Positions 1,498 to 44,308 of a DNA stretch of 64,000 nucleotides are shown here, piece after piece. Below the pieces are notes generated by a model that was given only the letters and a program-made list of their open reading frames with translations, was not told the DNA's origin and did no database searches. Position 1 is the stretch's first letter; every line of letters begins with the position of its first letter. This DNA comes from Thermodesulfobacteriota bacterium (GTDB lineage Bacteria; Desulfobacterota; Desulfobaccia; Desulfobaccales; 0-14-0-80-60-11): positions 22,495-86,494 of the forward strand of contig JBMORG010000006.1 in NCBI GenBank assembly GCA_049322355.1. Direction: 5' to 3'. The position numbers and the translations under genes were made by a program.

Positions 1498-2865
1498 TCA
1501 ACCTTTGTTTTCTGCCAACCGCCCGGAGCGCCAGGCATAGAGAAAATACACCACCAGGCCCAGCGCCAGCCACAGAAACAGCCGCAGCCAGGAGCCTTCC
1601 GGCATGGAGAGCATCAAACCCAGGCAGACCAGGACGCCGGTCGCAGCTACCAGTTTGCCCCCGGGGCAGCGAAAAGGGCGGGGCAAGGCCGGCTGAGTGA
1701 AGCGCAGCACCAGCACCCCCAGGCATACCAGAAAAAAAGCGAACAGAGTACCGATGTTGCACAAATAAGCCAGCTTGTCGATGGGAGTAAGCGAGGCCAC
1801 CAGGGCCACGGCTCCGCCGCAAAGCAGGGTCATGCGGTGGGGGGTGCGATAGCGGGGATGGAGCGCCGCCACCGCGCCCGGCAGCAGGCCGTCCCGGGCC
1901 ATGGCAAAGAGCACCCGGGGTTGGGCCAACAGCAGCATATAGAGCACGCTGGTAATGCCGATGAGGGCCCCGAGACCCACCAGGTCCGCAGCCCAGGGCA
2001 GATTCACCTGCCGAAAAACCGTGGAAAACGGGGCGTCCGGATCGATGCGGGTGTAAGACACCATGCCCACCAGGACGAGGGCTACAGCCAGGTAGATTAG
2101 GCTGCAAAGGGCAAGGGAGCCGATGATGCCGAAGGGGACGTCCTTCTCCGGCCTTCGGGATTCTTCGGCGGTAATGGCCACCACGTCGAACCCCAGGTAG
2201 GCGAAGAACACCAGGGACGCGGCCTGGATAATGCTGCCGCCCCCGAAGGGGATAAAGGGCGTCCAGTTGGCAGGCCTGATATAAAAAACCCCCAGGGCCA
2301 GTATGAAGGCAATGACGCCCAGCTTGACGGCCACCAGTCCCCGGGCGATGAGGGCGTTCAGGCGGGTGCGGAAGATCAAGAGTACTGCAAAGCCCATAAC
2401 TACCAGGGCCGCGGGCAGGTTGATGACGCGTCCCGGCGTGGTGAAGGGCGGACCGCTGGCCCATAGGGGCAGGGTCAGGCCATAGGCCCGGAGCAAGTCC
2501 TGAAGGTAGAAGGACCAGCCCGCAGCCACGGTGGCGGCCCCCATGCCATACTCCAGGATCAGGTCCCAGCCGATGATCCAGGCCGCCAATTCCCCAAAAA
2601 TTCCATAGGCATAGGTGTAGGCGCTACCCGCCTGGGGCATCATGGAGGCCAGTTCGGCGTAACACAGAGCCGCCAGGGTGCAGGCGCCCCCGGCCAGCAG
2701 AAAAGACAGGATGATGCCCGGGCCGGCGATCTTCACCCCTATCCCGGAAATCACGAAAATGCCGGCCCCGATAATCTGGGCCACTCCGATAACCACCAAG
2801 TCCAGGCGCGTGAGACTGCGCTTCAAGGTGGGGATGCCATCCCTTCCGGCCGGGCCAAGGTGCAA
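1498..2865 (-). CDS. Amino acid permease (APC superfamily)
   Basis: 455-aa polytopic membrane ORF. N-terminal LDLVVIGVAQIIGAGIFV and Gly-rich TM pattern are typical of APC/cationic amino-acid transporters. Confidence 0.75.
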   Translation of the reverse strand: MHLGPAGRDGIPTLKRSLTRLDLVVIGVAQIIGAGIFVISGIGVKIAGPGIILSFLLAGGACTLAALCYAELASMMPQAGSAYTYAYGIFGELAAWIIGWDLILEYGMGAATVAAGWSFYLQDLLRAYGLTLPLWASGPPFTTPGRVINLPAALVVMGFAVLLIFRTRLNALIARGLVAVKLGVIAFILALGVFYIRPANWTPFIPFGGGSIIQAASLVFFAYLGFDVVAITAEESRRPEKDVPFGIIGSLALCSLIYLAVALVLVGMVSYTRIDPDAPFSTVFRQVNLPWAADLVGLGALIGITSVLYMLLLAQPRVLFAMARDGLLPGAVAALHPRYRTPHRMTLLCGGAVALVASLTPIDKLAYLCNIGTLFAFFLVCLGVLVLRFTQPALPRPFRCPGGKLVAATGVLVCLGLMLSMPEGSWLRLFLWLALGLVVYFLYAWRSGRLAENKG

Positions 2866-2930
2866 CGGTTGTTTAGCCAGCAGACGCCGGCCTAAGGATC
2901 GCCAGCTCGGACCGGAGGCGGGCGCAGCCT

Positions 2931-3509
2931 TCAGAACTCCACAGCCTCCGCATTAATCTGGAGTTGAGGTCCACTACCACGGCCCGGCGGCAGGTTCACT
3001 GTTCCGGTGACGGTGATGGGTTTATCCAGGGGGGTGGAAGTGAGGGTTTGGACCAGCTTCGGGTCCGGCAAATTGCCGAACAAGACCTCCACCAAGCCCT
3101 GAGGCGATTTGAGGATAAGGGATTTATGGTGCATCATCACCGGGCCCACCTCGCCCTTGACTGTTACCCGGGTCCCCAGATAGCGCTCTTTAGCGGCCAA
3201 AAGCTGCCCTACGGTCAGGGCTTCCGGGCCCAAAGGCGGGCTTCCCATGGCCATTGGTTCCGAAGGTGGGGTGGGAGGCAGGGCCGGCTGTTTCAGCATC
3301 TCAATAATGGCCTGCTGCCCGCCCTGCAGTTGGTTGAGCTTTTCCTGTAAGGCGGTTACCTGGCCCTTAAGCGCCTGAATCTCTTGTCGGAGTTCCTCTT
3401 CCTTGTGGCTTGCAGGGGTGCAGGCGTATAGAAACGCCAGCGTCATAAGCAGGGCAATGAGGCAGCGGCGGCTCCCAGTTGCCATTGGCTGTGCCAGGCC
3501 GTGAGCCAT
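2931..3509 (-). CDS. Hypothetical lipoprotein with coiled-coil segment
   Basis: Signal peptide ending in lipobox-like LAFLYAC. Heptad-like EELRQEIQALKGQVTALQEKLNQLQ. No catalytic motif recognised. Alternative start at 3485. Confidence 0.5.
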   Translation of the reverse strand: MAHGLAQPMATGSRRCLIALLMTLAFLYACTPASHKEEELRQEIQALKGQVTALQEKLNQLQGGQQAIIEMLKQPALPPTPPSEPMAMGSPPLGPEALTVGQLLAAKERYLGTRVTVKGEVGPVMMHHKSLILKSPQGLVEVLFGNLPDPKLVQTLTSTPLDKPITVTGTVNLPPGRGSGPQLQINAEAVEF

Positions 3510-3678
3510 AATCGGGTGACCTCGGAAATTCGACTTTAAAGAGCCTTAAGCCCAGGCTGCATCAGGTGGTAGGCCCCGATTTAGCCTAATCCCAGTTTAA
3601 AAGATAAATTCTTTAACGGCAATGATTAATACCAAGTCTATGCGGAAAGACCTCTCCGGGTCATAATTATCCACCCGC

Positions 3679-4368
3679 CTAAATATTGAACCGAATCTCG
3701 ATGATGTCCCCTTCATGGATGGTGTAATCACGGTCCACCAGCTTAACCAGTCCCTTGGATCGGGCTTCCTGCATGTTATAGACCTGCAAAAAATCGTCGT
3801 AATTGACGATATCGGCCTTGATGAACCCCCGGGCCAGATCGGAGTGAATCTTCCCGGCGCAGGTGACAATGTCCGAATCCTGAGGTACCGGCCAGGCATG
3901 CACTTCCTTTTTATCCGCAGTGTAGAAAAAGACGATGCCAGATTTTTTCAGGATTCTGGTGATGGCCTCATTCAGTTCTGGCGCCTCCGCCAAGATGAGA
4001 GTGGGCTTTAAACTCAAGGGGGCCAGAGTCCGCAACAGGCTCAATTCCGCCCCGCTGAAGTGCCCGTCACACAGCGGCACTTCCTGCTCCAGATAATTCA
4101 GGCACTTCGTTAAAAGCTCTTGTTCCACTGCATCCGTGGTCCGGTCCCGGCGGGTCTCCAGTTTTTCCATGTCCAGGATCAACAAGTCCCAGACCCGTTC
4201 CCGGGCTACCAGGAACCCGTCACAGTGAGTAAAATCGTCCCGGGTGAATTCGACGTAAAACGGGGTGATTTTCTTGGGGGATAATTTCTGGTCCAGAGTG
4301 ATGACTCGCTCATCCTGGTACTTCACTTTGCCCTCGGGCAAGTCAAATCCAATGCTGCATATCTTCAT
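3679..4368 (-). CDS. YchF-related protein lacking the P-loop G domain (DUF933/TGS-like C-terminus)
   Basis: C-terminal HSDLARGFIKADIVNYDDF ... DRDYTIHEGDIIEIRFNI resembles the YchF C-terminal domain. N-terminus MKICSIGFDLPEGK has no GxxxxGK[ST] motif. 229 aa, versus about 360 for YchF. Confidence 0.6.
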   Translation of the reverse strand: MKICSIGFDLPEGKVKYQDERVITLDQKLSPKKITPFYVEFTRDDFTHCDGFLVARERVWDLLILDMEKLETRRDRTTDAVEQELLTKCLNYLEQEVPLCDGHFSGAELSLLRTLAPLSLKPTLILAEAPELNEAITRILKKSGIVFFYTADKKEVHAWPVPQDSDIVTCAGKIHSDLARGFIKADIVNYDDFLQVYNMQEARSKGLVKLVDRDYTIHEGDIIEIRFNI

Positions 4369-10353: not shown

Positions 10354-10455
10354 TCCCCCTGGTGGGAGTGGATTAAGGGGAGGGGGAAAAGGTGGAAAAT
10401 TCTATCTTGTTCACCCCCACCCTAACCCTCCCCCATCAAAGGTGAGGGAATTTTA
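10354..10455. repeat. Repeat family A, copy A1 (two G/C-run hairpin modules)
   Basis: cccctggtgggagtggattaaggggaggggg ... cacccccaccctaaccctcccccatcaaaggtgaggg matches the reverse complement of 44195-44308. Confidence 0.8.
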
Positions 10456-22354: not shown

Positions 22355-23785
22355 ATGAAACAGGAAAACGCCTCCATCCTGGTGGTAGATGATGATCCGG
22401 CCCTGCTCCAGAGCCTGAAAGAAATTCTGGAAGCCGAGGGCTATGAGGTTACCACCGCCATCGACGGCGAACAAGGTTTACTTCGGTTAAGAGAACAGGC
22501 TTTTGACCTGGTGCTGAGTGACCTGGCCATGCCCGGCCTGGACGGCATGGAACTGCTAAAACACGTCAAGCGCGAATTGCCCGAGTGCCCCTGCATCATC
22601 ATCACCGGTTACGGGTCTATCGAAAACGCAGTTGCCGCGATCCGCCAGGGGGCCTATGACTACTTTACCAAGCCGGTGGATGCCACCGAACTTCGCCTGG
22701 TAGTGGGCCGGGCCCTGGAACACCGCCGCCTCAAATGGGAAAATCTGCACCTAAAGAAACAGCTTCACCGGCGGTTCGGATTCGGCAACATGGTGGGCAA
22801 CAGCGAACCCATGATCCGGGTCTTCGACCTGATTCGCAAAGTGGCGGACAGTGACAGCAACGTCTTGATCCTGGGCGAATCCGGTACCGGCAAGGAGCTC
22901 ATCGCCCACGCCATCCATTATAATAGCCCCCGCCGGGAAGGGCCCCTGATCCCGGTCAACTGCGCCGCGATTCCCGAGGACCTCCTGGAGAGCGAACTCT
23001 TCGGGCACGAACGAGGCGCCTTTACCCACGCGGTGCGCACCCGCATCGGCCGCTTCGAACAGGCCAACGGCGGCACCATCTTTTTAGATGAAATCTCAGA
23101 GATGAGCCCCGGCCTCCAGGTAAAGATACTTCGGGTCCTGCAGGATCACTCCTTTGAAAGGATCGGTGGCATCAAAACCATCCGGGTGGATATCCGGGTG
23201 ATCGCCGCCACCAACCGCAACCTGGAAGAACTGGTGAGCCAGAACAAATTCCGGGAAGACCTGTTCTACCGCCTGAATGTCATTCCTATTGCGGTGCCCC
23301 CGTTGCGGGAGCGGACTTCCGATATCCCGCTGTTGGTGCAACACTTCCTGCACATATTTAGCCGCACCAAGAAGAAACCCCTCAAACGTCTCAGCCCCGC
23401 GGTTTCCGACTTGCTCTGCCAGTATCCCTGGCCGGGCAATGTCCGGGAATTGGAAAACCTCATGGAACGCCTGGTCATCCTTACCGAAGGGGAAATTATT
23501 GAGATCCCCGACTTGCCCGAGAAGTTTCAGCGCCTGGTCTTGCCTCCCCCGGAGAAGCCCACAGATTTTCCCGAGCGGGGTATTCATTTTACCGATGCAG
23601 TGGCCTCCTTCGAGCGCAACCTGATTCTCAAGGCCCTGCGCCAAACCAACTGGGTAAAAAGCCAGGCAGCCCAACTCCTTCATCTCAACCGCACAACCTT
23701 GCTGGAAAAGATGAAAAAGCAAAACATCCCCTCTAGTCCCGAATCCACCCCCCGGCCTGAGAAATTCTTCAAAGATTCGGCTTAA
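22355..23785 (+). CDS. Sigma54-dependent response regulator (NtrC family: REC + AAA+ + Fis-type HTH)
   Basis: REC domain with DLVLSDLAMPGLDG. Walker A GESGTGKE. GAFTGA-loop variant GAFTHA. C-terminal HTH QAAQLLHLNRTTLLEKMKK. Confidence 0.9.
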   Translation: MKQENASILVVDDDPALLQSLKEILEAEGYEVTTAIDGEQGLLRLREQAFDLVLSDLAMPGLDGMELLKHVKRELPECPCIIITGYGSIENAVAAIRQGAYDYFTKPVDATELRLVVGRALEHRRLKWENLHLKKQLHRRFGFGNMVGNSEPMIRVFDLIRKVADSDSNVLILGESGTGKELIAHAIHYNSPRREGPLIPVNCAAIPEDLLESELFGHERGAFTHAVRTRIGRFEQANGGTIFLDEISEMSPGLQVKILRVLQDHSFERIGGIKTIRVDIRVIAATNRNLEELVSQNKFREDLFYRLNVIPIAVPPLRERTSDIPLLVQHFLHIFSRTKKKPLKRLSPAVSDLLCQYPWPGNVRELENLMERLVILTEGEIIEIPDLPEKFQRLVLPPPEKPTDFPERGIHFTDAVASFERNLILKALRQTNWVKSQAAQLLHLNRTTLLEKMKKQNIPSSPESTPRPEKFFKDSA

Positions 23786-24782: not shown

Positions 24783-27113
24783 ATGGCGCAGCGTTCCTGG
24801 AAAATACTGGCTGGCATCATTCTGATCCTGGCAACCGTGATCGTTTATGCAGACCTGAGTAACCATCAGTTTATCAGCTTTGATGACAATCTTTACGTCA
24901 CTGATAATCCCACGGTTCAGAGAGGGCTCACCCTCCAGGGGGTCACCTGGGCTTTTACTACCTTCCATGCCGGTAATTGGATACCTCTGACCTGGCTCTC
25001 TCACATGGTGAACTGTCAGTTGTTCGGGTTGAACCCAAGAGGCCACCTATTAACCAACTTACTTCTCCATGTCGCCAATACCCTGCTTTTGTTTTCATTT
25101 TTTCTCCGGACTACCCAAGCCCTGGGGCCCAGTTTTCTGGTAGCCGCCCTGTTTGCCCTTCATCCGCTCCACGTGGAGTCGGTGGCCTGGGTGTCAGAAC
25201 GCAAAGATGTCTTGAGCACCTTCTTCTGGCTGCTTACCATGTGGGCCTACGTCTGGTACCTCAAGTCTCCGGGGATACAGCGCTACCTGGCAGTTTTGCT
25301 CTGTTTCGGCTTGGGGCTGATGTCCAAGCCCATGCTGGTAACCCTGCCCTTTGTGCTGCTGCTCTTGGACTACTGGCCTTTGGGGCGTTGGCAACTCAAT
25401 GGTGCAACTGGGGCGAATCCGGTTGCTAACCGAGTGTCGCGAACCGATCGCAAGGTTCCCCTCTCCCGCTTAATCTTGGAGAAAGTGCCTCTTTTAGTCC
25501 TGGTGGTGATGTTCGGCTTGATTTCCTTCCATGCACAAAAAGTGTCTGGAGCAGTAACGTCGGTGGAAAATTTCCCCATTGCCGCTCGCCTGAGCAATGC
25601 TCTGATAGCCTATGTCAGTTATATGGGAATGATGATCTGGCCCGCTCATTTGGGCGTCTATTATCCACTTATAGAGGAGGATATCACCTTTGGGTCGGCG
25701 CTGGGGGCCGGGCTCATATTGCTGTTTCTTTCTTCAGCAATAATCTGGCAGGCTCGGCGACGTCTTTATCTTCCGGTGGGGTGGCTGTGGTACTTGGGAA
25801 CCCTGGTGCCGGTCATCGGCTTGGTGCAGATAGGCAATCAGGCCCTGGCGGACCGCTACACCTATGTTCCCCTCATCGGTCTTTTTCTCATAATTGCCTA
25901 TGGGTTAAGTGACCTCGTAGCCGGCTGGCCCCGGCTGAAGACCCTTGTGCCCCTGGGGATTGGGATTCTCTTGGCTGCCCTGGCCCTTTGTACCTATCGG
26001 CAGGTGGGCTACTGGCATGACTCGCAGTCTCTATACGAACATACCCTGCGAATAACGAGAAACAATTATTTGATCAATTACAACCTCGGAAACAGATGGT
26101 ATGCGCAAGGCAAGCTTGAATCGGCCATTTCTTGCTATACCGAGGCCCTGCGAATCTTTCCCGATTATTTCGAGGCGCATAACAACCTGGGGCTGGCTCT
26201 GCAGGCGCAAGGCAAGGCGGAGCAGGCAATTTTCCACTATAACGAGGCCCTGCGAATCAACCCTGATTTTGACAAGGCGCACAATAACCTGGGGCTGGCC
26301 TTGTATACGCAAGGCAAGGTGGAGCCGGCAATTTCCCACTATAACGAGGCCTTACGGCTCCGCCCCCATTACCCCGAGGCGCATAATAACCTTGGTATGG
26401 CCTTATATGCGCAAGGCAAGGTGGACTCGGCAATTTCCCACTATAACGAGGCCCTGCGGCTCCAGCCTGGCTTTGCCCAGGCCCACTATAACTTAGGGCT
26501 GGCCTTGCAGGCGCAGGGCAGGACGGAGCCGGCAATTTCCCACTTTACCGAGGCCTTGCGAATTAACCCTGATTTTGACAAGGCCCATAACCAACTGGGG
26601 TTGGCCTTGTATACGCAAGGCAAGGTGGAGCAGGCAATTTTTCATTATTCCGAGGTCTTGCGGCTCCAGCCCAATAATTTCAAAGCACATAACAACCTGG
26701 GAATTGCCTTGGCTTCCCAGGGCAAACTGGAGCAGGCGATCCAGCATTACCGGCAGGCCTTACATCTGAAACCCGACTATGCTCAGGCTTTGAATAACCT
26801 GGCCTATGTTCTGGCCACGGCTGCCGACCAGAAATTTCGTGACGGCCCCGCAGCGGTGCAACTTGCTGAAAAAGCCAACCGGCTCACCGGATTTAGCCAA
26901 CCAGAGACGGTAGACACCCTGGCGGCGGCTTATGCGGCGGCGGGCCGCTTCCCGGAAGCTATCCAGTCCTCCCGGAAAGCTCTCAATCTCGCCCGGCGCC
27001 GCGGCCAGCCGGACCTAATCAAACAAATTACCGACAGGATGTATCTCTACCAGGCAGGCCTGCCATTCCGCGCCAGCTCATCAGCTTCCCACCTCCGTGA
27101 GGAGTCGCGCTAG
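24783..27113 (+). CDS. Membrane GT-C-fold glycosyltransferase-like domain (PMT/ArnT/TMTC-like) fused to a C-terminal TPR array
   Basis: About 420 aa of multi-TM N-terminus (FDDNLYVTDNP, HAGNWIPLTWLSH) followed by at least 8 TPR units. 776 aa. Confidence 0.75.
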   Translation: MAQRSWKILAGIILILATVIVYADLSNHQFISFDDNLYVTDNPTVQRGLTLQGVTWAFTTFHAGNWIPLTWLSHMVNCQLFGLNPRGHLLTNLLLHVANTLLLFSFFLRTTQALGPSFLVAALFALHPLHVESVAWVSERKDVLSTFFWLLTMWAYVWYLKSPGIQRYLAVLLCFGLGLMSKPMLVTLPFVLLLLDYWPLGRWQLNGATGANPVANRVSRTDRKVPLSRLILEKVPLLVLVVMFGLISFHAQKVSGAVTSVENFPIAARLSNALIAYVSYMGMMIWPAHLGVYYPLIEEDITFGSALGAGLILLFLSSAIIWQARRRLYLPVGWLWYLGTLVPVIGLVQIGNQALADRYTYVPLIGLFLIIAYGLSDLVAGWPRLKTLVPLGIGILLAALALCTYRQVGYWHDSQSLYEHTLRITRNNYLINYNLGNRWYAQGKLESAISCYTEALRIFPDYFEAHNNLGLALQAQGKAEQAIFHYNEALRINPDFDKAHNNLGLALYTQGKVEPAISHYNEALRLRPHYPEAHNNLGMALYAQGKVDSAISHYNEALRLQPGFAQAHYNLGLALQAQGRTEPAISHFTEALRINPDFDKAHNQLGLALYTQGKVEQAIFHYSEVLRLQPNNFKAHNNLGIALASQGKLEQAIQHYRQALHLKPDYAQALNNLAYVLATAADQKFRDGPAAVQLAEKANRLTGFSQPETVDTLAAAYAAAGRFPEAIQSSRKALNLARRRGQPDLIKQITDRMYLYQAGLPFRASSSASHLREESR
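26080..26795 (+). repeat. Tandem 102-nt (34-aa TPR) repeats, 7 units, with a 306-nt higher-order duplication
   Basis: The ccctgattttgacaaggc...ttgtatacgcaaggcaaggtggagc block occurs at 26261 and again at 26567. Confidence 0.85.
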
Positions 27114-27378: not shown

Positions 27379-28548
27379 TCATTCCCGGGGCACCAGCCGG
27401 TAGACTTCCAAGAGAGGCAGGCCCTGGGCTTCGGCCATCTGGCGGCAGGCTTCGTACTCAGCTAGTAACCTGCGGCGGCCGCCGTATTCCATGACCTTCA
27501 CCTGGAGCGGGCCGTAGGGGGTGGCGATGGTCTCGGGCCAGCGCCGGGCCGTGACCCGCTCCACCTCCATAACCCGCACCCCCAGGGTGGTGGAATCCGC
27601 GAAAATCCGGTCCAGCAGCCCCTCTTTGGCCGCAACGGGCGCGACCACGGTTAAGCGCACGCCGGGACGGTTTTTTTTCATTTGGATGGGGGCCAGCGCC
27701 ACGTCCAAGGCCCCGGCGCCCAAGAGGCCAGCCATGAGGGGCTCGTACCATTCCGGGTTCATGTCGTCCAGGTGGGTTTCCAAGACCAGGATAGTCTCCC
27801 GGCGGCCCGCAGCCGCAACCAGGGGCGCCCCCAGGTAGAGACGCAGGAGATTGGGATGGCCCGGCAGGTCCCGGCTGCCGGCGCCGTACCCGACTTGGGC
27901 CAGCGTCATGGCCGGGCAGGGCTCGCAGACAGCCTCGCAGGCTTTCAGGATCGCGGCCCCGGTGGGGGTGACCAGCTCTCCCGGCAGGTCGGTGCCGTAA
28001 ACCGCCAGGCCCTTCAACAACTCCAGGGTGGCGGGAGCCGGGTTGGGCAGCCGCCCGTGGCCCGCGGCGATCATGCCCCAGCCCATGGGCAGGGAACTGC
28101 AAAAGACCCGGGAAACCCCCAGGCGCTCTAAGCCGTGCGCCGCGCCCACCACGTCCACGATGGTGTCCAGGGCCCCCAGTTCGTGGAAATGCACGGTTTC
28201 CAGGGGTTGGCCGTGGATGCGGGCCTCCACCTCTCCCAGGAGGCGAAACGTGGTAAGGCTCCGGGCCTTGACCGCGTCGGTCAAGGGGGCTTGTTCGATC
28301 AGGGCGCAGATTTCCCGGTAGGTGCGGGCCGGCTGGCGCTTGGGGGAAGAAATCTCCACCTTGACGCCGGTGAGGTGTTCTTTGCTCACCTGATGGGCCG
28401 TGATGGAGACTTCCACCAACCCCAGGGCGGCGACCAGGTTTTGAAGTTCTTCCACCGGCAGCCCCAGGTCAATCAAGGCCCCCAGGGTCATATCGCCGCT
28501 GATGCCCGAGAAACAGTCAAAAAACGCCCAGCACTGAGGAACCTGCAA
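27379..28548 (-). CDS. larC: LarC-family nickel insertion protein (DUF111)
   Basis: N-terminal FDCFSGISGDMTLGALIDLG is characteristic of the LarC/DUF111 family. 389 aa. Confidence 0.8.
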   Translation of the reverse strand: MQVPQCWAFFDCFSGISGDMTLGALIDLGLPVEELQNLVAALGLVEVSITAHQVSKEHLTGVKVEISSPKRQPARTYREICALIEQAPLTDAVKARSLTTFRLLGEVEARIHGQPLETVHFHELGALDTIVDVVGAAHGLERLGVSRVFCSSLPMGWGMIAAGHGRLPNPAPATLELLKGLAVYGTDLPGELVTPTGAAILKACEAVCEPCPAMTLAQVGYGAGSRDLPGHPNLLRLYLGAPLVAAAGRRETILVLETHLDDMNPEWYEPLMAGLLGAGALDVALAPIQMKKNRPGVRLTVVAPVAAKEGLLDRIFADSTTLGVRVMEVERVTARRWPETIATPYGPLQVKVMEYGGRRRLLAEYEACRQMAEAQGLPLLEVYRLVPRE

Positions 28549-28837
28549 AAATTATTTCCCCCTCACCCAACCCCTCTCTTACCAGATAGAGGGGATTAAT
28601 GACATGATATTAACGCCACATCCATTATAATTCATCTTTGGCTAAATTCCGAATATTTAGCGGTCAGTAGCATTCTGCCCTATTTTTGCTATCTAAAGGT
28701 TGGTGAGGCACTCTTAAAATTGGCCTCTACTCCTTGAAGCATATTCATGCAAGCCATCCCTTTACTATAAGACAAAAGTAATTTTCAATTATCATTGATA
28801 AATATACAACTTAGAGGCGTTTTATTGTAAAATTTGC

Positions 28838-28867
28838 TTGACAAATATTATTAAATATGCTTATAGT
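28838..28867 (+). promoter_or_regulatory. Sigma70-like promoter TTGACA-N18-TATAGT
   Basis: Lies in the AT-rich spacer. Would place the transcription start near 28873, just before CAAACC. Confidence 0.35.
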
Positions 28868-28872
28868 GCAAA

Positions 28873-28934
28873 ATCAAACCCATCGGAAGGTGGGGACGGA
28901 AGCCACGGGTCTTTAAATTTGTGTGGCTGTGCGC
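28873..28934 (+). promoter_or_regulatory. Candidate c-di-GMP-I (GEMM-I)-like riboswitch aptamer, atypical
   Basis: CAAACC + hairpin CCCAUC-GGAA-GGUGGG + GACGGAAGCC + hairpin AGCCAC..GUGGCU. A downstream CGAUGGG is complementary to CCCAUCG. Confidence 0.5.
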
Positions 28935-29002
28935 AAAAAACGATGGGGGGCAATAACCGCACCGCCAGCGGCATCTGCGCCAATGACGTCTTCACCTGGC
29001 AG

Positions 29003-29076
29003 GTTCCACTGCCACCTCTTTGCTGCTGCTGGGCTCCGGCTTTCTGTGCTTGAGTATTCTAAGGAAGTGGAAGTAA
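29003..29076 (+). pseudogene. Frameshifted PEP-CTERM sorting-signal relic
   Basis: VPLP is encoded in one frame. SLLLLGSGFLCLSILRKWK-stop is encoded in the frame reached by restoring a single missing base. No upstream signal peptide or ORF body. Confidence 0.55.
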
Positions 29077-29171
29077 GCCTGCCTGGAAGAGATAGTTTCT
29101 CTTAAATCCAGCGCATCGCACTTTAACCCTATTTCCTTAAATAGGCTTGAGCTACCAGCAAGGAGGAAGAT

Positions 29172-30083
29172 ATGAAAAGTTTATATAATAGGATCCTTGT
29201 CTTAACGATCATACCATTATTGCTTGCAGTTTCAGCGGTATATCCAGCCGATTACTTATTTTCCCCTCTTAATTTGCCTGACGGTGGATATGGCGGTGAT
29301 ATTAATAACCTGGACCAAATTGTCGGCATTAATGATGGTCAAGGTTTTATAAAAGACGGTCCCACATTTACTACGTTTTCCCCTGTCGGCGCTGCACTTA
29401 CAGCTGCTCGAGGGATCAACGACAATGGTTTGATTGTGGGAGTATATTTCGATGGGTTATTTGTTGCCCATGGTTTTATGAAAAATGGGATTAATTACAC
29501 CATACTTAACTTTCCAGGTTCCATAACAACGAGTGCCTACGGAATTAATAATAGTGGTGTTATTGTGGGAGAATACGAATTGTCAAATATGCATGGATTT
29601 ATGACTACAGATGGTGTAAACTTTAACCCATTAGATTATCCTGGCTCTACGAGTTCCCGTGCCTTTGGAATTAATAACACTGGCAAAATTGTTGGAGAAT
29701 ACCGAGACGCTGGAGGAATTTTTCACGGTTACCTATATGACGGAGGTAACTTTACACCAATAAATTTCCCTCTTGCGTCGAACACGCATGCCTATGGAAT
29801 TAATGACAAGGGGCAGGTTGTTGGATCTTATGAAAATCTATCTGGGGAGCATGGGTTCATAAAAGATGGCAATAATTATACCACAATTGATTTCCCCAGC
29901 ACTGCTATAACGCGGGCTTATGGAATTAATTATGATGGCGAAGTTGTAGGGTCTTACTTTATAACTAGGAATGACTCGGCGAGTGGTTTTTTCGCGGCGC
30001 CCGTCCCCTTGCCTAATACCCTGCTCCTCTTCGGCTCCGGGCTCTTGGGATTGGCGGGCTGGAGAAGGTTCAGGAAGGGTTAA
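29172..30083 (+). CDS. Secreted HAF-type repeat protein with PEP-CTERM sorting signal
   Basis: Signal peptide. About 6 repeats of A(Y/F)GIN(N/D)xGxIVGxY...HGF. C-terminal VPLPNTLLLFGSGLLGLAGWRRFRKG. SD AAGGAGG. Confidence 0.85.
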   Translation: MKSLYNRILVLTIIPLLLAVSAVYPADYLFSPLNLPDGGYGGDINNLDQIVGINDGQGFIKDGPTFTTFSPVGAALTAARGINDNGLIVGVYFDGLFVAHGFMKNGINYTILNFPGSITTSAYGINNSGVIVGEYELSNMHGFMTTDGVNFNPLDYPGSTSSRAFGINNTGKIVGEYRDAGGIFHGYLYDGGNFTPINFPLASNTHAYGINDKGQVVGSYENLSGEHGFIKDGNNYTTIDFPSTAITRAYGINYDGEVVGSYFITRNDSASGFFAAPVPLPNTLLLFGSGLLGLAGWRRFRKG

Positions 30084-30118
30084 TCATACTTAACTCCGAG
30101 GATAGACTATCAGGGTCC

Positions 30119-30138
30119 GGCGTGTCCATGCCTTTTTT
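30119..30138 (+). terminator. Weak hairpin plus T6 after PEP-CTERM gene
   Basis: ggcgt-gtcc-atgcc followed by tttttt. Confidence 0.35.
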
Positions 30139-30246
30139 ATAATTGATCGCTTGCCAGCTTCAACAATTATCACCTCACCCCCAAAATTCCAGATTTGATC
30201 TCATTATTCAGAAGGGAATTTTGTTTCATGGCGAAAGTATCGGCAC

Positions 30247-31491
30247 TCACTCCGGGGTTCCGTCGACAACGAGTTCCACCTCCTTTACGGCCCGGGCCTC
30301 GGCCTGGCGCACGGTGAATTTGAGATTGCGGAATTGCAGTTGCTCCCCGGCCCGGGGCAAATCCCCCAACTGGGAAATGAGAAACCCGGCCAGGGTTTCA
30401 TAATCGCCGCCGGGCAGTTTTAAGTGGAGAGATTCGTTTAAGACCTTGATTTCCGTGCGGGCGCTGATGAGGTAATGGCCGTCCGCCAACTTCTTGAAGG
30501 GCGCGACCTCCTGGTCAAATTCGTCGGTGATCTCGCCCACGATCTCTTCCAAAAGGTCTTCGATGGTGACGATGCCCACGGCGCCGCCGTATTCGTCCAC
30601 CACTACCGCCAGGTGGTTCCCCTGGCGCTGCATCTCGGCCAGTTGCCGGTCGATCTTCTTAAGCTCAGGCACGTAAGCCACCGGGCGCATGATGGTGCGA
30701 ATGGGCCGTTCCAGGTCGGTTTCGCCCAACAGGTCAAAATCGTGGGCCACCCCTATGAGGTTGTCTATGCGGTGATGATAGACCGGCAGGCGGGAAAAGC
30801 GGGAGTTGCGAAATTCTTCCAAGGCCTGGCTCATGGTCAGGGTATCCGGGATGGCCGTCACCCGGACAAGGGGCACCATCACCTCCTTGACAGTGCGCAG
30901 GCTGAAGTGCAGGATTCGATGGATAATGCGCCGTTCCGGGGTCTCCAGGTCCACCTCTGGCCCGCTTTTCTTCACCACCAGGTGCAAATCTTCCCGGCTG
31001 ATAAAGGGCAACTCGCTGGTCCGGGACGCCCCGGTGAGCCAAAGGGCCAAGCGGCTTAAGCCCGCGAAAATGAAAGTAAGGGGATAAAGCATCCAGGATA
31101 TGAACCAGAGGATAGGCCCTAGCCTTTTAGCCAGGCGGTTGGGGTGCTGACGCCCGATGGATTTGGGGGTGATTTCCGCCAGGATCAGGATTAAGGGAGG
31201 CAACGCCAGCATGGCCAGCAGTTCTCCGGCGGTCCCCATGGTTTCCAACAAAAAGGCGGTGACCAGAATCGTGTTGCTGATTTCCGACAGGTTGGAACCC
31301 AGCAGGGTGGTGGCCACCAGGCGCTCGGGCCGCTCCAAAAGTTTCAAGGCCTGGTTGGCCCCCCGGACTCCCTGTTCCGCCCAGTGCCTGAGGCGGCGGC
31401 GGCTGGCGGAAATGAGAGCGATCTCCGACGCTGAAAAAAAGGCCTCCAGGAGCAGGAAAGGAATGAAAATAAAGAATAAGCCGATAATCAT
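30247..31491 (-). CDS. CNNM/CorB-type hemolysin-family protein (DUF21 + CBS pair + CorC_HlyC)
   Basis: N-terminal 4-TM DUF21, a CBS pair, and C-terminal [15 protein letters not shown] ... FTVRQ. Confidence 0.8.
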
Positions 31492-44194: not shown

Positions 44195-44308
44195 AAATTC
44201 CCTCCCCCTTGATGGGGGAGGGTTAGGGTGGGGGTGAGAAAATTCGAATCTTCGACCATTATCTTCCCCCTCCCCTTAATCCCCTCCCACCAGGGGAGGG
44301 GAAAAGGG
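44195..44308. repeat. Repeat family A, copy A2 (inverted relative to A1)
   Basis: attccctcccccttgatgggggagggttagggtgggggtga ... cccctccccttaatcccctcccaccaggggagggg. Confidence 0.8.

What the first reader, a model, noticed from the sequence alone, without database searches (positions are those of the whole stretch)
28866..28950. c-di-GMP-I (GEMM-I)-like riboswitch candidate with deviating ligand-contact positions
Seen in sequence: after a TTGACA-N18-TATAGT promoter-like site, the RNA reads AAAUCAAACC and runs into a 6-bp hairpin CCCAUC/GGUGGG capped by the GNRA tetraloop GGAA (28879-28894). This is followed by GACGGAAGCC (28895-28904) and a second hairpin AGCCAC/GUGGCU (28901-28928). As far as I recall the Vibrio Vc2 example (GGCAAACC..GAAA..GGGACGCAAAGCC..), this order is the layout of the GEMM-I aptamer: CAAACC, GNRA-capped hairpin, GGGACGxAAGCC linker, second hairpin. 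Two differences fall in the regions that contact the ligand in canonical members. The base before CAAACC is U, not G (c-di-GMP) or A (the cGAMP-selective variants). The linker is ACGGAAGCC instead of ACGCAAAGCC. CGAUGGG (28941-28947) is complementary to CCCAUCG (28879-28885), giving a mutually exclusive pairing like an expression platform. The context (a PEP-CTERM surface protein) fits cyclic-dinucleotide control of surface and biofilm traits. It could be a variant-specificity aptamer or a decaying one.
Basis: partly seen in the sequence, partly recalled or inferred. Interest (0 to 1): 0.7.

Follow-up and report, generated by a model that had tools for sequence, protein, structure and literature searches.

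The report
Diverged, probably defunct cyclic-dinucleotide riboswitch
The leader of a surface-protein gene in an uncultured sulfate-reducer relative carries a real but eroded copy of a known cyclic-dinucleotide-sensing RNA, which has lost a key ligand-contact base and its switching part, so it most likely no longer senses anything.

Summary
The element (28866-28935, + strand) is a true relative of the c-di-GMP-I (GEMM-I) riboswitch clan. It scores 29 bits against RF03167, below the gathering score of 59. It scores 39.9 bits (E about 1e-8) against a model I built from five relatives. The same RNA lineage sits upstream of the three closest full-length homologues of the downstream HAF/PEP-CTERM gene. 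The U before CAAACC is position 21, which pairs with G46. This pair is flipped (C-G or U.G) throughout the lineage, so it is not a ligand contact. The deviations specific to the window are A instead of G at position 20 and GU instead of GC where C92 lies. There is also no terminator or other recognisable expression platform. A frameshifted PEP-CTERM tail fragment follows directly. A near-consensus promoter has its -10 box over the P1 5' strand. My best reading (0.5) is a decaying riboswitch that now serves as promoter and leader. The main rival (0.3) is a working A20/U92 variant with altered cyclic-dinucleotide specificity.

The parts
28838..28867 (+). Sigma-70-type promoter-like site TTGACA-N18-TATAGT. 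Its -10 box overlaps the first two bases of the putative P1 5' strand.
   Evidence: 11/12 match. (only site at 11/12 or better in the window; 1.3% of shuffles). (a perfect TTGACA lies 30-33 nt before P1 in L247, L251 and L119, but only 22 nt before it here).
28866..28935 (+). GEMM-I-lineage aptamer homologue, whole element.
   Evidence: RF03167, 29 bits, gathering score 59. (own model R1, 39.9 bits, global alignment of model positions 1-74). (MFE is a three-way junction, -25 kcal/mol, z -2.37).
28866..28869 (+). Putative P1 5' strand GUGC, pairing with GCGC at 28931-28934.
   Evidence: It is complementary, but it lies inside or next to the -10 box, so it is probably not transcribed from this promoter.
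28870..28873 (+). J1/2, AAAA. It is 2 nt shorter than in relatives (AaAAAG). A28873 occupies the place of the ligand-contacting G20.
   Evidence: Vc2 numbering from PMC11705072 and PMC6140456.
28874..28875 (+). U21 and C22, pairing with G28899 (position 46) and G28898 (position 45). This is the flipped 21-46 pair typical of the lineage.
   Evidence: C-G or U.G in all sequences, 100% paired.
28879..28894 (+). P2 hairpin CCCAUC-GGAA-GGUGGG with a GNRA loop, flanked by the AAA (28876-78) / GAC (28895-97) internal loop.
   Evidence: P2 covaries across relatives.
28900..28900 (+). A at the position of the intercalating A47. The J2/3 A-run is one A shorter than in Vc2, L247, L249 and L251.
28901..28928 (+). 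P3. The proximal part AGCC/GGCU is conserved. The distal part is weak or remodelled. It is either a plain hairpin AGCCACG/UGUGGCU, or the family register with bulged A28905 and a U28920-G28921 bulge plus three G.U pairs.
   Evidence: The Rfam model gains nothing from this 3' part: 30.1 bits for 28865-28914 alone against 29.0 bits for the full length.
28929..28934 (+). J3/1 GU (U28930 at the position of C92), then the P1 3' strand GCGC.
   Evidence: The Rfam alignment instead places G28933-C28934 in J3/1 and leaves no P1.
28941..28947 (+). CGAUGGG, complementary to the P2 5' strand. This is an alternative pairing with no recognisable regulatory output.
28943..29076 (+). Frameshifted 3' fragment of a PEP-CTERM gene (..VFTWQVPLPP | SLLLLGSGFLCLSILRKWK*). 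It has no signal peptide and no N-terminal part.
   Evidence: three-frame translation. (after a 1-nt repair, PF07589 scores 21.2 bits against a cut-off of 20.7).
29172..30083 (+). HAF-repeat protein with a PEP-CTERM sorting signal. It is the gene downstream of the element and is preceded by AAGGAGG.
   Evidence: Its closest full-length homologues carry the same riboswitch lineage upstream.
28661..30148 (.). Variable cargo segment inserted between the CNNM-family gene (30247-31491, - strand) and larC (27379-28548, - strand). It contains all the parts listed above.
   Evidence: In most Desulfobaccales relatives the two genes abut. Nearer relatives carry unrelated cargo of 0.8-3.3 kb between conserved flanks of about 100 nt.

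Best explanation
The element is a degenerating member of a particular GEMM-I (c-di-GMP-I / c-AMP-GMP) riboswitch lineage. In other uncultured bacteria this lineage controls HAF-repeat PEP-CTERM surface-protein genes and other secreted proteins as a transcriptional ON switch. In those relatives, the ligand-bound aptamer holds the P3/P1 3' strands and prevents an overlapping terminator from forming.

Shown: the window keeps the promoter, the P2 hairpin with its GNRA loop, the flipped 21-46 pair, the proximal P3 helix, and a sequence complementary to a short P1.

Also shown: it has A instead of the ligand-contacting G20, GU instead of GC at the C92 junction, and a weakened distal P3. It has no terminator or anti-Shine-Dalgarno platform. 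A frameshifted tail of a PEP-CTERM gene begins a few bases after the aptamer.

Inferred: a deletion removed the expression platform and most of a gene that followed. Applying the promoter geometry of the relatives puts the transcription start at about 28873-28875, so the P1 5' strand and most of J1/2 are not in the RNA.

Inferred consequence: the region now acts as a constitutive promoter plus a structured 5' leader for the HAF/PEP-CTERM gene, and it no longer responds to a cyclic dinucleotide.
For: Homology. RF03167 scores 29 bits with E 7.9e-5. The own model R1, built without the window, scores 39.9 bits with E about 1e-8. The 17-nt core GGGACGGAAGCCACGGG is identical in L119 and L240.

Lineage and module. 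The same lineage lies upstream of the HAF homologues P0005, P0081 and P0101 (L247 at 73.9 bits, above the gathering score; L249; L251). Its structure is supported by covariation: 86% of cells paired, 8 pairs changed on both sides, 0 of 500 shuffles as high.

Erosion. The window scores lowest among first or single aptamers (relatives score 46-86 bits). The Rfam score comes entirely from the 5' two-thirds: 30.1 bits against 29.0 bits for the full length. Every other first or single aptamer of the lineage has G at position 20. J1/2 is 2 nt short.

Platform. Relatives have a hairpin plus U-run that overlaps the aptamer 3' strand: L247 1157-1188, L251, and L119, L199 and L228. In L249 a CCUCC stretch that I read as an anti-Shine-Dalgarno sequence lies upstream of the ribosome-binding site. 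The window has none of these; its only terminator-like sites are weak and lie inside the gene fragment.

Gene fragment.

Promoter. It is the only 11/12 site in 64 kb. TTGACA lies 30-33 nt before P1 in L247, L251 and L119, but 22 nt before it here.

Literature. In Vc2, loss of the C44-G83 contact abolishes ligand binding (PMC11705072) and mutating G20 weakens binding 30,000-fold (PMC4744006).
Against: All three helices can still form. The MFE of 28864-28939 is a clean three-way junction (z -2.37). P1 is complementary through changed bases (GUGC/GCGC against UCAG/CUGG, UUCG/CGAA and AUCU/AGAU), which is unexpected if the 5' strand were no longer transcribed. P2 is perfect and its loop is still GNRA.

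A at position 20 is the natural signature of c-AMP-GMP-selective GEMM-I variants. One such aptamer has been validated in Desulfobacca acetoxidans, of the same order (PMC9481103). The second, weak aptamer of L247 also has A at position 20.

The 7-bp alternative pairing with the P2 5' strand is rarer than chance for that specific 7-mer (0.65%). The transcription start is predicted, not measured. Only one genome carries this exact sequence, so there is no conservation test for or against.
Confidence: 0.5

Rival explanations
1. It is a working variant riboswitch. A GEMM-I aptamer with A20 and U92 (plus the lineage's flipped 21-46 pair and a shortened J2/3) senses a cyclic dinucleotide other than c-di-GMP, namely 3'3'-cGAMP or c-di-AMP. 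It controls the HAF/PEP-CTERM gene through an unconventional platform, for example competition between the P2 hairpin and the CCCAUCG/CGAUGGG helix, or Rho-dependent termination in the long leader.
For: The lineage model aligns globally with P1, P2, P3 and bulges in place. The MFE is a three-way junction. A20 is the c-AMP-GMP signature and is functional in D. acetoxidans (PMC9481103, PMC6140456). The engineered Vc2 G20A/C92U mutant binds c-di-AMP (PMC7288161). A20 recurs in L247 aptamer 2, upstream of the closest HAF homologue. A GU junction also occurs in L199 and is the consensus of RF03168. The riboswitch-HAF gene module is conserved. The alternative 7-bp helix occurs in 0.65% of shuffles.
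Against: The predicted transcription start cuts off the P1 5' strand and J1/2. There is no terminator or Shine-Dalgarno sequestration linked to the aptamer. Long-range pairings to the leader or the Shine-Dalgarno region are not beyond chance. Distal P3 is weak. L247 aptamer 2 itself lacks a P1 3' strand and scores low.
Confidence: 0.3
2. It is an ordinary c-di-GMP riboswitch that tolerates these changes and still binds c-di-GMP, weakly. An A20 aptamer can bind c-di-GMP through a protonated adenine.
For: The G20A Vc2 mutant binds c-di-GMP with a KD of 53 nM, and natural A20 aptamers are often bispecific (PMC6140456). The context is a PEP-CTERM surface protein. PEP-CTERM system-related genes lie nearby in the window: a PrsT-like TPR protein and a PrsR-like sigma-54 activator, both below the curated cut-offs.
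Against: The same structural and platform problems as above apply. In addition, U instead of C92 removes the Watson-Crick partner of the second guanine. No GGDEF gene lies in the window, though the window is only 64 kb.
Confidence: 0.12
3. It is a chance resemblance: an AT-rich promoter region with two hairpins that happens to look like GEMM-I.
For: It is below every Rfam gathering score. The 3' third adds nothing to the Rfam score.
Against: E is about 1e-8 with an independent lineage model. The 17-nt core is identical to that of relatives, and the promoter and aptamer follow the same order. The same lineage lies upstream of homologous genes.
Confidence: 0.02

Closest known systems
c-di-GMP-I riboswitch (GEMM-I, Rfam RF01051; Vibrio cholerae Vc2)
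   Same: Three-helix junction. CAAACC followed by a GNRA-capped hairpin with an AAA/GAC internal loop. The GGGACG linker. An A at the intercalating position 47. P3 beginning with AGCC. Association with surface and biofilm genes.
   Different: A instead of G20. U.G instead of the G21-C46 pair. One A fewer in J2/3. GU instead of (A/G)C at the C92 junction. Weak distal P3, so the C44-G83 contact is uncertain. No expression platform. Below the gathering score.
c-AMP-GMP (3'3'-cGAMP) riboswitch, GEMM-Ib (Geobacter Gs1761; Desulfobacca acetoxidans cluster-3 aptamer, PMC9481103)
   Same: A at position 20. The host belongs to the Desulfobaccales order, which is known to hold both G20 and A20 aptamers. 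The lineage's relatives are ON switches with terminators.
   Different: Known members keep C92 to pair with the G of cGAMP and have complete P1 and terminators. Here the junction reads GU, P1 is overlapped by the -10 box, and there is no terminator.
c-di-GMP-I-GGC variant (Rfam RF03167)
   Same: It is the best-scoring Rfam model for the window and its relatives. It shares the P3 sequence AAGCCACGG...AGCCGGGCU.
   Different: The G that the model reads as position 47 is better explained as G46 paired with Y21. L247, L249 and L251 have A at the position the model reads as 47. The window scores 29 bits against a gathering score of 59. As far as I know, no ligand has been established for this variant class; I could not read the original paper.
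c-di-GMP-I-UAU variant (Rfam RF03168)
   Same: The GU junction (U at position 92) and A47. It is the best model for L247 aptamer 2.
   Different: The UAU class has U at position 20 and a G-C 21-46 pair. The window has A20 and U21.G46.
Engineered Vc2 G20A/C92U double mutant (PDB 3MUV)
   Same: The same pair of pocket bases, A20 and U92, if the R1 alignment is right.
   Different: It is a laboratory construct on an otherwise intact Vc2 scaffold and binds c-di-AMP (PMC7288161). No natural counterpart is known to me.

Membership tests
c-di-GMP-I clan (Rfam CL00126: RF01051, RF03167, RF03168) | Covariance-model score at or above the curated gathering score | tested here: not met
   The best score is 29 bits for RF03167, whose gathering score is 59. 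The two other clan models score lower and are hidden by the tool.
c-di-GMP-I clan | Statistically significant homology to the aptamer | tested here: met
   E 7.9e-5 in the 551-nt search. It has the lowest E-value of all matches in the window. The own lineage model scores 39.9 bits with E about 1e-8.
c-di-GMP-I clan | P2 (P1b) hairpin with a GNRA loop and an AAA/GAC internal loop closed by the C22-G45 pair | tested here: met
   28875-28898 shows six pairs, a GGAA loop, AAA opposite GAC, and C28875-G28898.
c-di-GMP-I clan | The G21-C46 base pair next to the pocket | tested here: not met
   It is U28874.G28899. The pair is retained as a wobble. It is C-G or U.G across the lineage.
c-di-GMP-I clan | G at position 20 (Hoogsteen contact to the first guanine) | tested here: not met
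   A28873. J1/2 is AAAA and is 2 nt shorter than in relatives. Numbering checked against PMC11705072 and PMC6140456.
c-di-GMP-I clan | A47 intercalating between the ligand bases | tested here: inconclusive
   A28900 fits if U21 pairs with G46. The Rfam alignment instead reads G28899 as position 47.
c-di-GMP-I clan | C92 in J3/1 (Watson-Crick partner of the second guanine) | tested here: inconclusive
   It is U28930 in the lineage-model alignment and the MFE register. It is C28934 in the Rfam alignment, which then leaves no P1.
c-di-GMP-I clan | P3 with a bulged G that forms the C44-G83 tertiary pair, and a docking site for the GNRA loop | tested here: inconclusive
   C28897 is present. The candidate G28921 is bulged only in the R1 register, which has three G.U pairs. 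The thermodynamically favoured hairpin has no bulge. Tertiary contacts cannot be tested with these tools.
c-di-GMP-I clan | A P1 helix closing the junction and present in the transcript | tested here: inconclusive
   GUGC/GCGC are complementary. However, G28866-U28867 are part of the -10 box, and the relatives' promoter geometry puts the start at about 28873-28875.
c-di-GMP-I clan | An expression platform coupled to the aptamer 3' strand (terminator or Shine-Dalgarno sequestration) | tested here: not met
   No hairpin plus U-run follows the aptamer. Relatives have one. Pairings to the leader or the Shine-Dalgarno region are not beyond chance.
c-di-GMP-I clan | Binding of a cyclic dinucleotide | not testable with these tools
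   This needs in-line probing, ITC or a reporter assay.
c-AMP-GMP riboswitch (GEMM-Ib) | A at position 20 together with C92 on a GEMM-I scaffold | tested here: inconclusive
   A20 is met (A28873). C92 is ambiguous: U28930 or C28934 depending on the register.
PEP-CTERM sorting signal (PF07589), for the fragment 28943-29076 | A match to the motif at or above the Pfam gathering score in an intact reading frame | tested here: not met
   The motif is split over two frames. Only after a 1-nt repair does it score 21.2 bits against a cut-off of 20.7. There is no signal peptide or N-terminal domain, so it is a gene fragment.

The most novel reading that the evidence does not exclude
The window element and the second aptamer of L247 would represent a natural GEMM-I variant class with A at position 20 and U at position 92, on a scaffold with a flipped 21-46 pair. 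This is the natural counterpart of the engineered Vc2 G20A/C92U mutant. Such a class would sense c-di-AMP, or another adenine-containing cyclic dinucleotide, and link it to HAF/PEP-CTERM surface proteins. In some genomes it would stand in tandem with a c-di-GMP-type aptamer.
Probability: 0.12. Interest if true: 0.65.

Novelty: new member of a known kind. Interest (0 to 1): 0.3.

Why it matters
If the favoured reading is right, this is an ordinary example of riboswitch decay. It is useful mainly as a caution. A sub-threshold hit with changed 'ligand-contact' bases can be a relic, and the apparent contact change (U before CAAACC) is a compensated helix flip shared by a whole lineage.

Two by-products have some value. 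First, a GEMM-I lineage with a C-G or U.G 21-46 pair mostly falls below Rfam thresholds and recurs upstream of HAF-repeat PEP-CTERM genes in uncultured bacteria. Second, A20-type copies exist within that lineage. If the A20/U92 copies bind a ligand, they would be the first natural GEMM-I aptamers predicted to prefer c-di-AMP. That can be tested directly with short RNAs.

Tried and rejected
(1) Orthologous leaders. The larC neighbourhoods of 38 Desulfobaccales relatives hold no copy of the element (blastn; 16 of them also scanned with Rfam at gathering thresholds; all 38 scanned with R1). The site is a variable cargo spot, so orthology-based covariation was impossible.

(2) Genome-wide pattern TCAAACC..GGGACGGAAGCC. 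It gave 35 hits, about the number I estimated for chance, and none was riboswitch-like.

(3) Viral contigs. Three chance hits.

(4) Parent gene of the PEP-CTERM fragment. The protein search found no candidate. Similarity to the HAF C-terminus is not significant (E 0.074).

(5) The idea that the 3' half is homologous to the long P3 insert of L119, which would mean the aptamer is truncated inside P3. Local alignments are not better than shuffles, and R1 aligns the 3' half globally.

(6) An apparent second aptamer 3' end, AGCC-UGCCUGGA, at 29078-29090. There is no R1 hit and the alignment is not beyond shuffles.

(7) Long-range helices of the aptamer or of the Shine-Dalgarno region with the leader. 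The 303-nt leader folds well (z -3.68), but the specific duplexes are reached by 56% and 14% of shuffles.

(8) The simple terminator scan misses the relatives' terminators with large loops. I took those from the sequence and from MFE folds. Only the L247 terminator was found by the tool.

(9) The paper that defined the GGC and UAU variants (PMC5358364) is not held.

Full report
**Observation.**
- The promoter-like site TTGACA-N18-TATAGT (28838-28867) matches 11 of 12 positions.
- It is the only site at 11/12 or better on either strand of the 64-kb window.
- Only 1.3% of shuffles of the 623-nt intergenic region contain such a site.
- The downstream ORF 29172-30083 carries a HAF repeat (TIGR02913) and a PEP-CTERM motif (PF07589).

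**Is it GEMM-I-like beyond chance?**
- Rfam at gathering thresholds finds nothing in the window.
- In E-value mode, 28864-28939 matches RF03167 (c-di-GMP-I-GGC) over the full model at 29 bits (gathering score 59).
- E is 7.9e-5 for the 551-nt search and 0.0092 for the whole window, where it has the lowest E-value of all matches.
- The two other clan models score lower.
- The 5' part alone (28865-28914) scores 30.1 bits, so the Rfam model gets nothing from the 3' third.

**Host and locus.**
- The upstream divergent gene is larC. Its product is 80-87% identical to LarC of Desulfobaccales MAGs.
- In most relatives, lon, two CNNM-family genes and larC follow each other directly.
- In the window and its nearest relatives, an unrelated cargo of 0.8-3.3 kb sits between the second CNNM gene and larC, with conserved flanks of about 100 nt.
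- The window's cargo (about 28661-30148) consists of an AT-rich promoter region, the aptamer-like element, a gene fragment and the HAF gene.
- None of the relatives has the element at this site, so there are no orthologous leaders to compare.

**Relatives of the RNA.**
- A metagenome scan for CAAACC-N10-16-GGGACGGAAGCC was cut at 120 rows. It gave three riboswitch-like loci: L199 (PVMS01094024), L228 (Ga0124853_1494310) and L119 (JABAOC010035477).
- A last genome scan added L240, a delta-proteobacterial MAG (CAWIHO010000052).
- Their RF03167 scores are 49.4, 42.7, 38.6 and 38.7 bits, all below the gathering score.
- The HAF protein has no close homologue; the best hit is 48% identical over half its length.
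- Yet the leaders of its three closest full-length homologues carry the same RNA lineage:
  - P0005 in L247: aptamer 1 scores 73.9 bits, above the gathering score, and a weak second aptamer follows.
  - P0081 in L249 and L250.
  - P0101 in L251 and L252.
- Not all HAF homologues carry it.
- I aligned five relatives, with long P3 inserts trimmed and the window excluded. The GEMM-I structure is 86% paired on this alignment, with 8 pairs changed on both sides. No shuffle out of 500 reaches either value.
- The model built from this alignment (R1) aligns window 28866-28935 end to end at 39.9 bits, with E about 1e-8 over 449 kb.
- Relatives score 46-86 bits, and L247 aptamer 2 scores 32.6 bits.

**What the deviations are.**
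- In Vc2, G21 pairs with C46 and C22 with G45. G20, A47 and C92 contact the ligand, and the C44-G83 contact is needed for binding (PMC11705072, PMC6140456, PMC4744006). CAAACC is C22-C27.
- The U before CAAACC is therefore position 21. It pairs with the extra G of ACGGAAGCC.
- Across the lineage this pair is C-G (7 sequences) or U.G (L199 and the window), and it is always paired.
- L247, L249 and L251 have ACGG-AAA-GCC. The window, L199, L228, L119 and L240 have one A fewer.
They are not peculiar to this copy, and the first is not a ligand contact.
- Four things are peculiar to the window:
  - J1/2 is AAAA, 2 nt shorter, with A28873 where every other first or single aptamer has G20.
  - J3/1 is GU in the R1 alignment and the MFE register. 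Among relatives only L199 shares this; the others have GC, CC or AC.
  - Distal P3 is weak, with three G.U pairs, or else is remodelled into a plain hairpin without bulges.
  - It has the lowest score of all first or single aptamers.
- The Rfam alignment uses a different P3 register. That register keeps a GC junction but leaves no P1 and is thermodynamically poor: -3.5 against -18.1 kcal/mol for P2 plus P3.

**Surroundings of the aptamer.**
- Relatives are built as switches. In L247, L251 and L119 a perfect TTGACA lies 30-33 nt before P1 (40 and 47 nt in L240 and L199).
- With a 17-nt spacer, a 6-nt -10 box and about 7 nt to the start, transcription begins at P1.
- In L247 (13-bp stem at 1157-1188), L251, and L119, L199 and L228, a hairpin plus U-run follows.
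- The 5' arm of that hairpin is the P3/P1 3' strand. In L249 a CCUCC stretch that I read as an anti-Shine-Dalgarno sequence lies upstream of the ribosome-binding site.
- The validated Desulfobacca acetoxidans aptamers, three c-di-GMP type and one A20 c-AMP-GMP type, are likewise predicted ON switches with terminators (PMC9481103).
- In the window, TTGACA lies only 22 nt before the putative P1 strand, and the -10 box TATAGT overlaps it.
- The same geometry puts the start at about 28873-28875, at position 20 or 21. P1 and most of J1/2 would then be missing from the RNA.
- No terminator follows. The only terminator-like sites are weak and lie inside coding-like sequence.
- From 28943 the sequence reads as the last 44 or so codons of a PEP-CTERM protein, split by a frameshift: VFTWQVPLPP in one frame and SLLLLGSGFLCLSILRKWK-stop in another.
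- Repaired by one base, this fragment scores 21.2 bits against PF07589, whose cut-off is 20.7.
- It has no signal peptide or body, so it is a gene remnant. No other sigma-70-like promoter lies between it and the HAF start.

**Interpretation.** The most economical account is as follows.
- A riboswitch of this lineage once controlled a PEP-CTERM gene followed by, or related to, the HAF gene.
- A deletion removed its expression platform and most of that gene.
- The 5' leader was shortened by about 10 nt relative to the family design.
- The pocket bases then drifted: G20 to A, and C92 to U.
- What remains is a strong promoter and a structured leader that reads through into the HAF gene.
- The deletion and the transcription start are inferred, not shown. 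I give this reading 0.5.

**Against it.**
- The element still folds on its own into a clean three-way junction (-25 kcal/mol, z -2.37).
- P1 is complementary through different bases than in relatives, and P2 is flawless.
- A20 is a known functional variant (PMC6140456, PMC9481103) and recurs in L247 aptamer 2.
- The CCCAUCG/CGAUGGG complement is rare for that specific 7-mer (0.65%), though it has no recognisable output.
- With U92, the pocket would match the engineered G20A/C92U Vc2 mutant, which binds c-di-AMP (PMC7288161).
- I therefore keep a working A20/U92 variant at 0.3, an ordinary weak c-di-GMP sensor at 0.12, and chance at 0.02. The remainder covers outcomes not listed.

**Comparison and novelty.**
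- By homology the element belongs to the GEMM-I clan. [quoted passage not shown]
- By curated criteria it is not a member, because the score, G20, the G21-C46 sequence and the platform are not met. C92, the G83 contact and P1 in the transcript are undecided.
- It is a new, probably defunct, member of a known kind.
- The flipped-pair lineage and its link to HAF/PEP-CTERM genes are a modest extension of what is known.
- Only the A20/U92 reading would be of real interest.

Noticed in passing
window 28549-30246, compared with L037-L073: The junction between the second CNNM-family gene and larC is a hot spot. Most Desulfobaccales have the two genes adjacent. The nearest relatives each carry different, unrelated cargo of 0.8-3.3 kb between conserved flanks of about 100 nt. 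L040 also has a 40-codon duplicate of the CNNM gene end at the junction.
   Followed up: partly
L247 1098-1172 and 1248-1324; L251 501-587 and about 670-750: Tandem arrangement upstream of HAF homologues. A high-scoring G20 aptamer with its own terminator is followed by a second, much more diverged aptamer-like copy. In L247 the second copy has A at position 20 and the same UCAG 5' end as the first, so it is a duplication. In L251 the second copy was seen by eye only and was not picked up by R1.
   Followed up: partly
L247 2534-2610 (- strand) and 2611-3858; L251 2512-3318: The HAF homologue of L247 is followed by a group II intron (RF00029 at 48.1 bits, above its gathering score of 40) with a gene for reverse transcriptase and maturase. 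That of L251 is followed by a phage-type integrase gene. These riboswitch-HAF modules sit in mobile or variable contexts, as in the window.
   Followed up: no
L119 174-352 and 567-995: A member of the same RNA lineage has a branched insert of about 106 nt in P3. It precedes an FKBP-type peptidyl-prolyl isomerase gene rather than a surface protein.
   Followed up: partly
L199 (reverse strand, oriented 174-246 and about 315-335): After the aptamer and its terminator there is a second stretch, GAGACAGCCGGGUUGCCGAAG, that matches the consensus P3/P1 3' strand of the lineage. The downstream genes are a lipoprotein-like ORF and a protein whose N-terminus (MNRIYRLIWNESKGALVVASE) looks to me like an autotransporter-type extended signal peptide.
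   Followed up: no
window 22355-23785 and 24783-27113: A sigma-54-dependent response regulator is related to the PEP-CTERM-box regulator PrsR (TIGR02915, 423 bits, below its cut-off of 503). A 776-aa TPR protein is related to PrsT (TIGR02917, below its cut-off). These are PEP-CTERM/exosortase system relatives a few kb upstream.
   Followed up: no
window 10361-10437 and 44198-44303: Two near-perfect palindromic hairpins match microRNA-precursor models on both strands at sub-threshold scores. They are probably long inverted repeats or bidirectional terminators.
   Followed up: no
window 28873-29175: The whole 303-nt leader is predicted to fold unusually well (z -3.68). One predicted helix of about 11 bp joins CCUCUUUGCUG in the gene fragment with CAGCAAGGAGG, which spans the HAF Shine-Dalgarno sequence. 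The individual duplexes are not beyond chance for this composition.
   Followed up: yes
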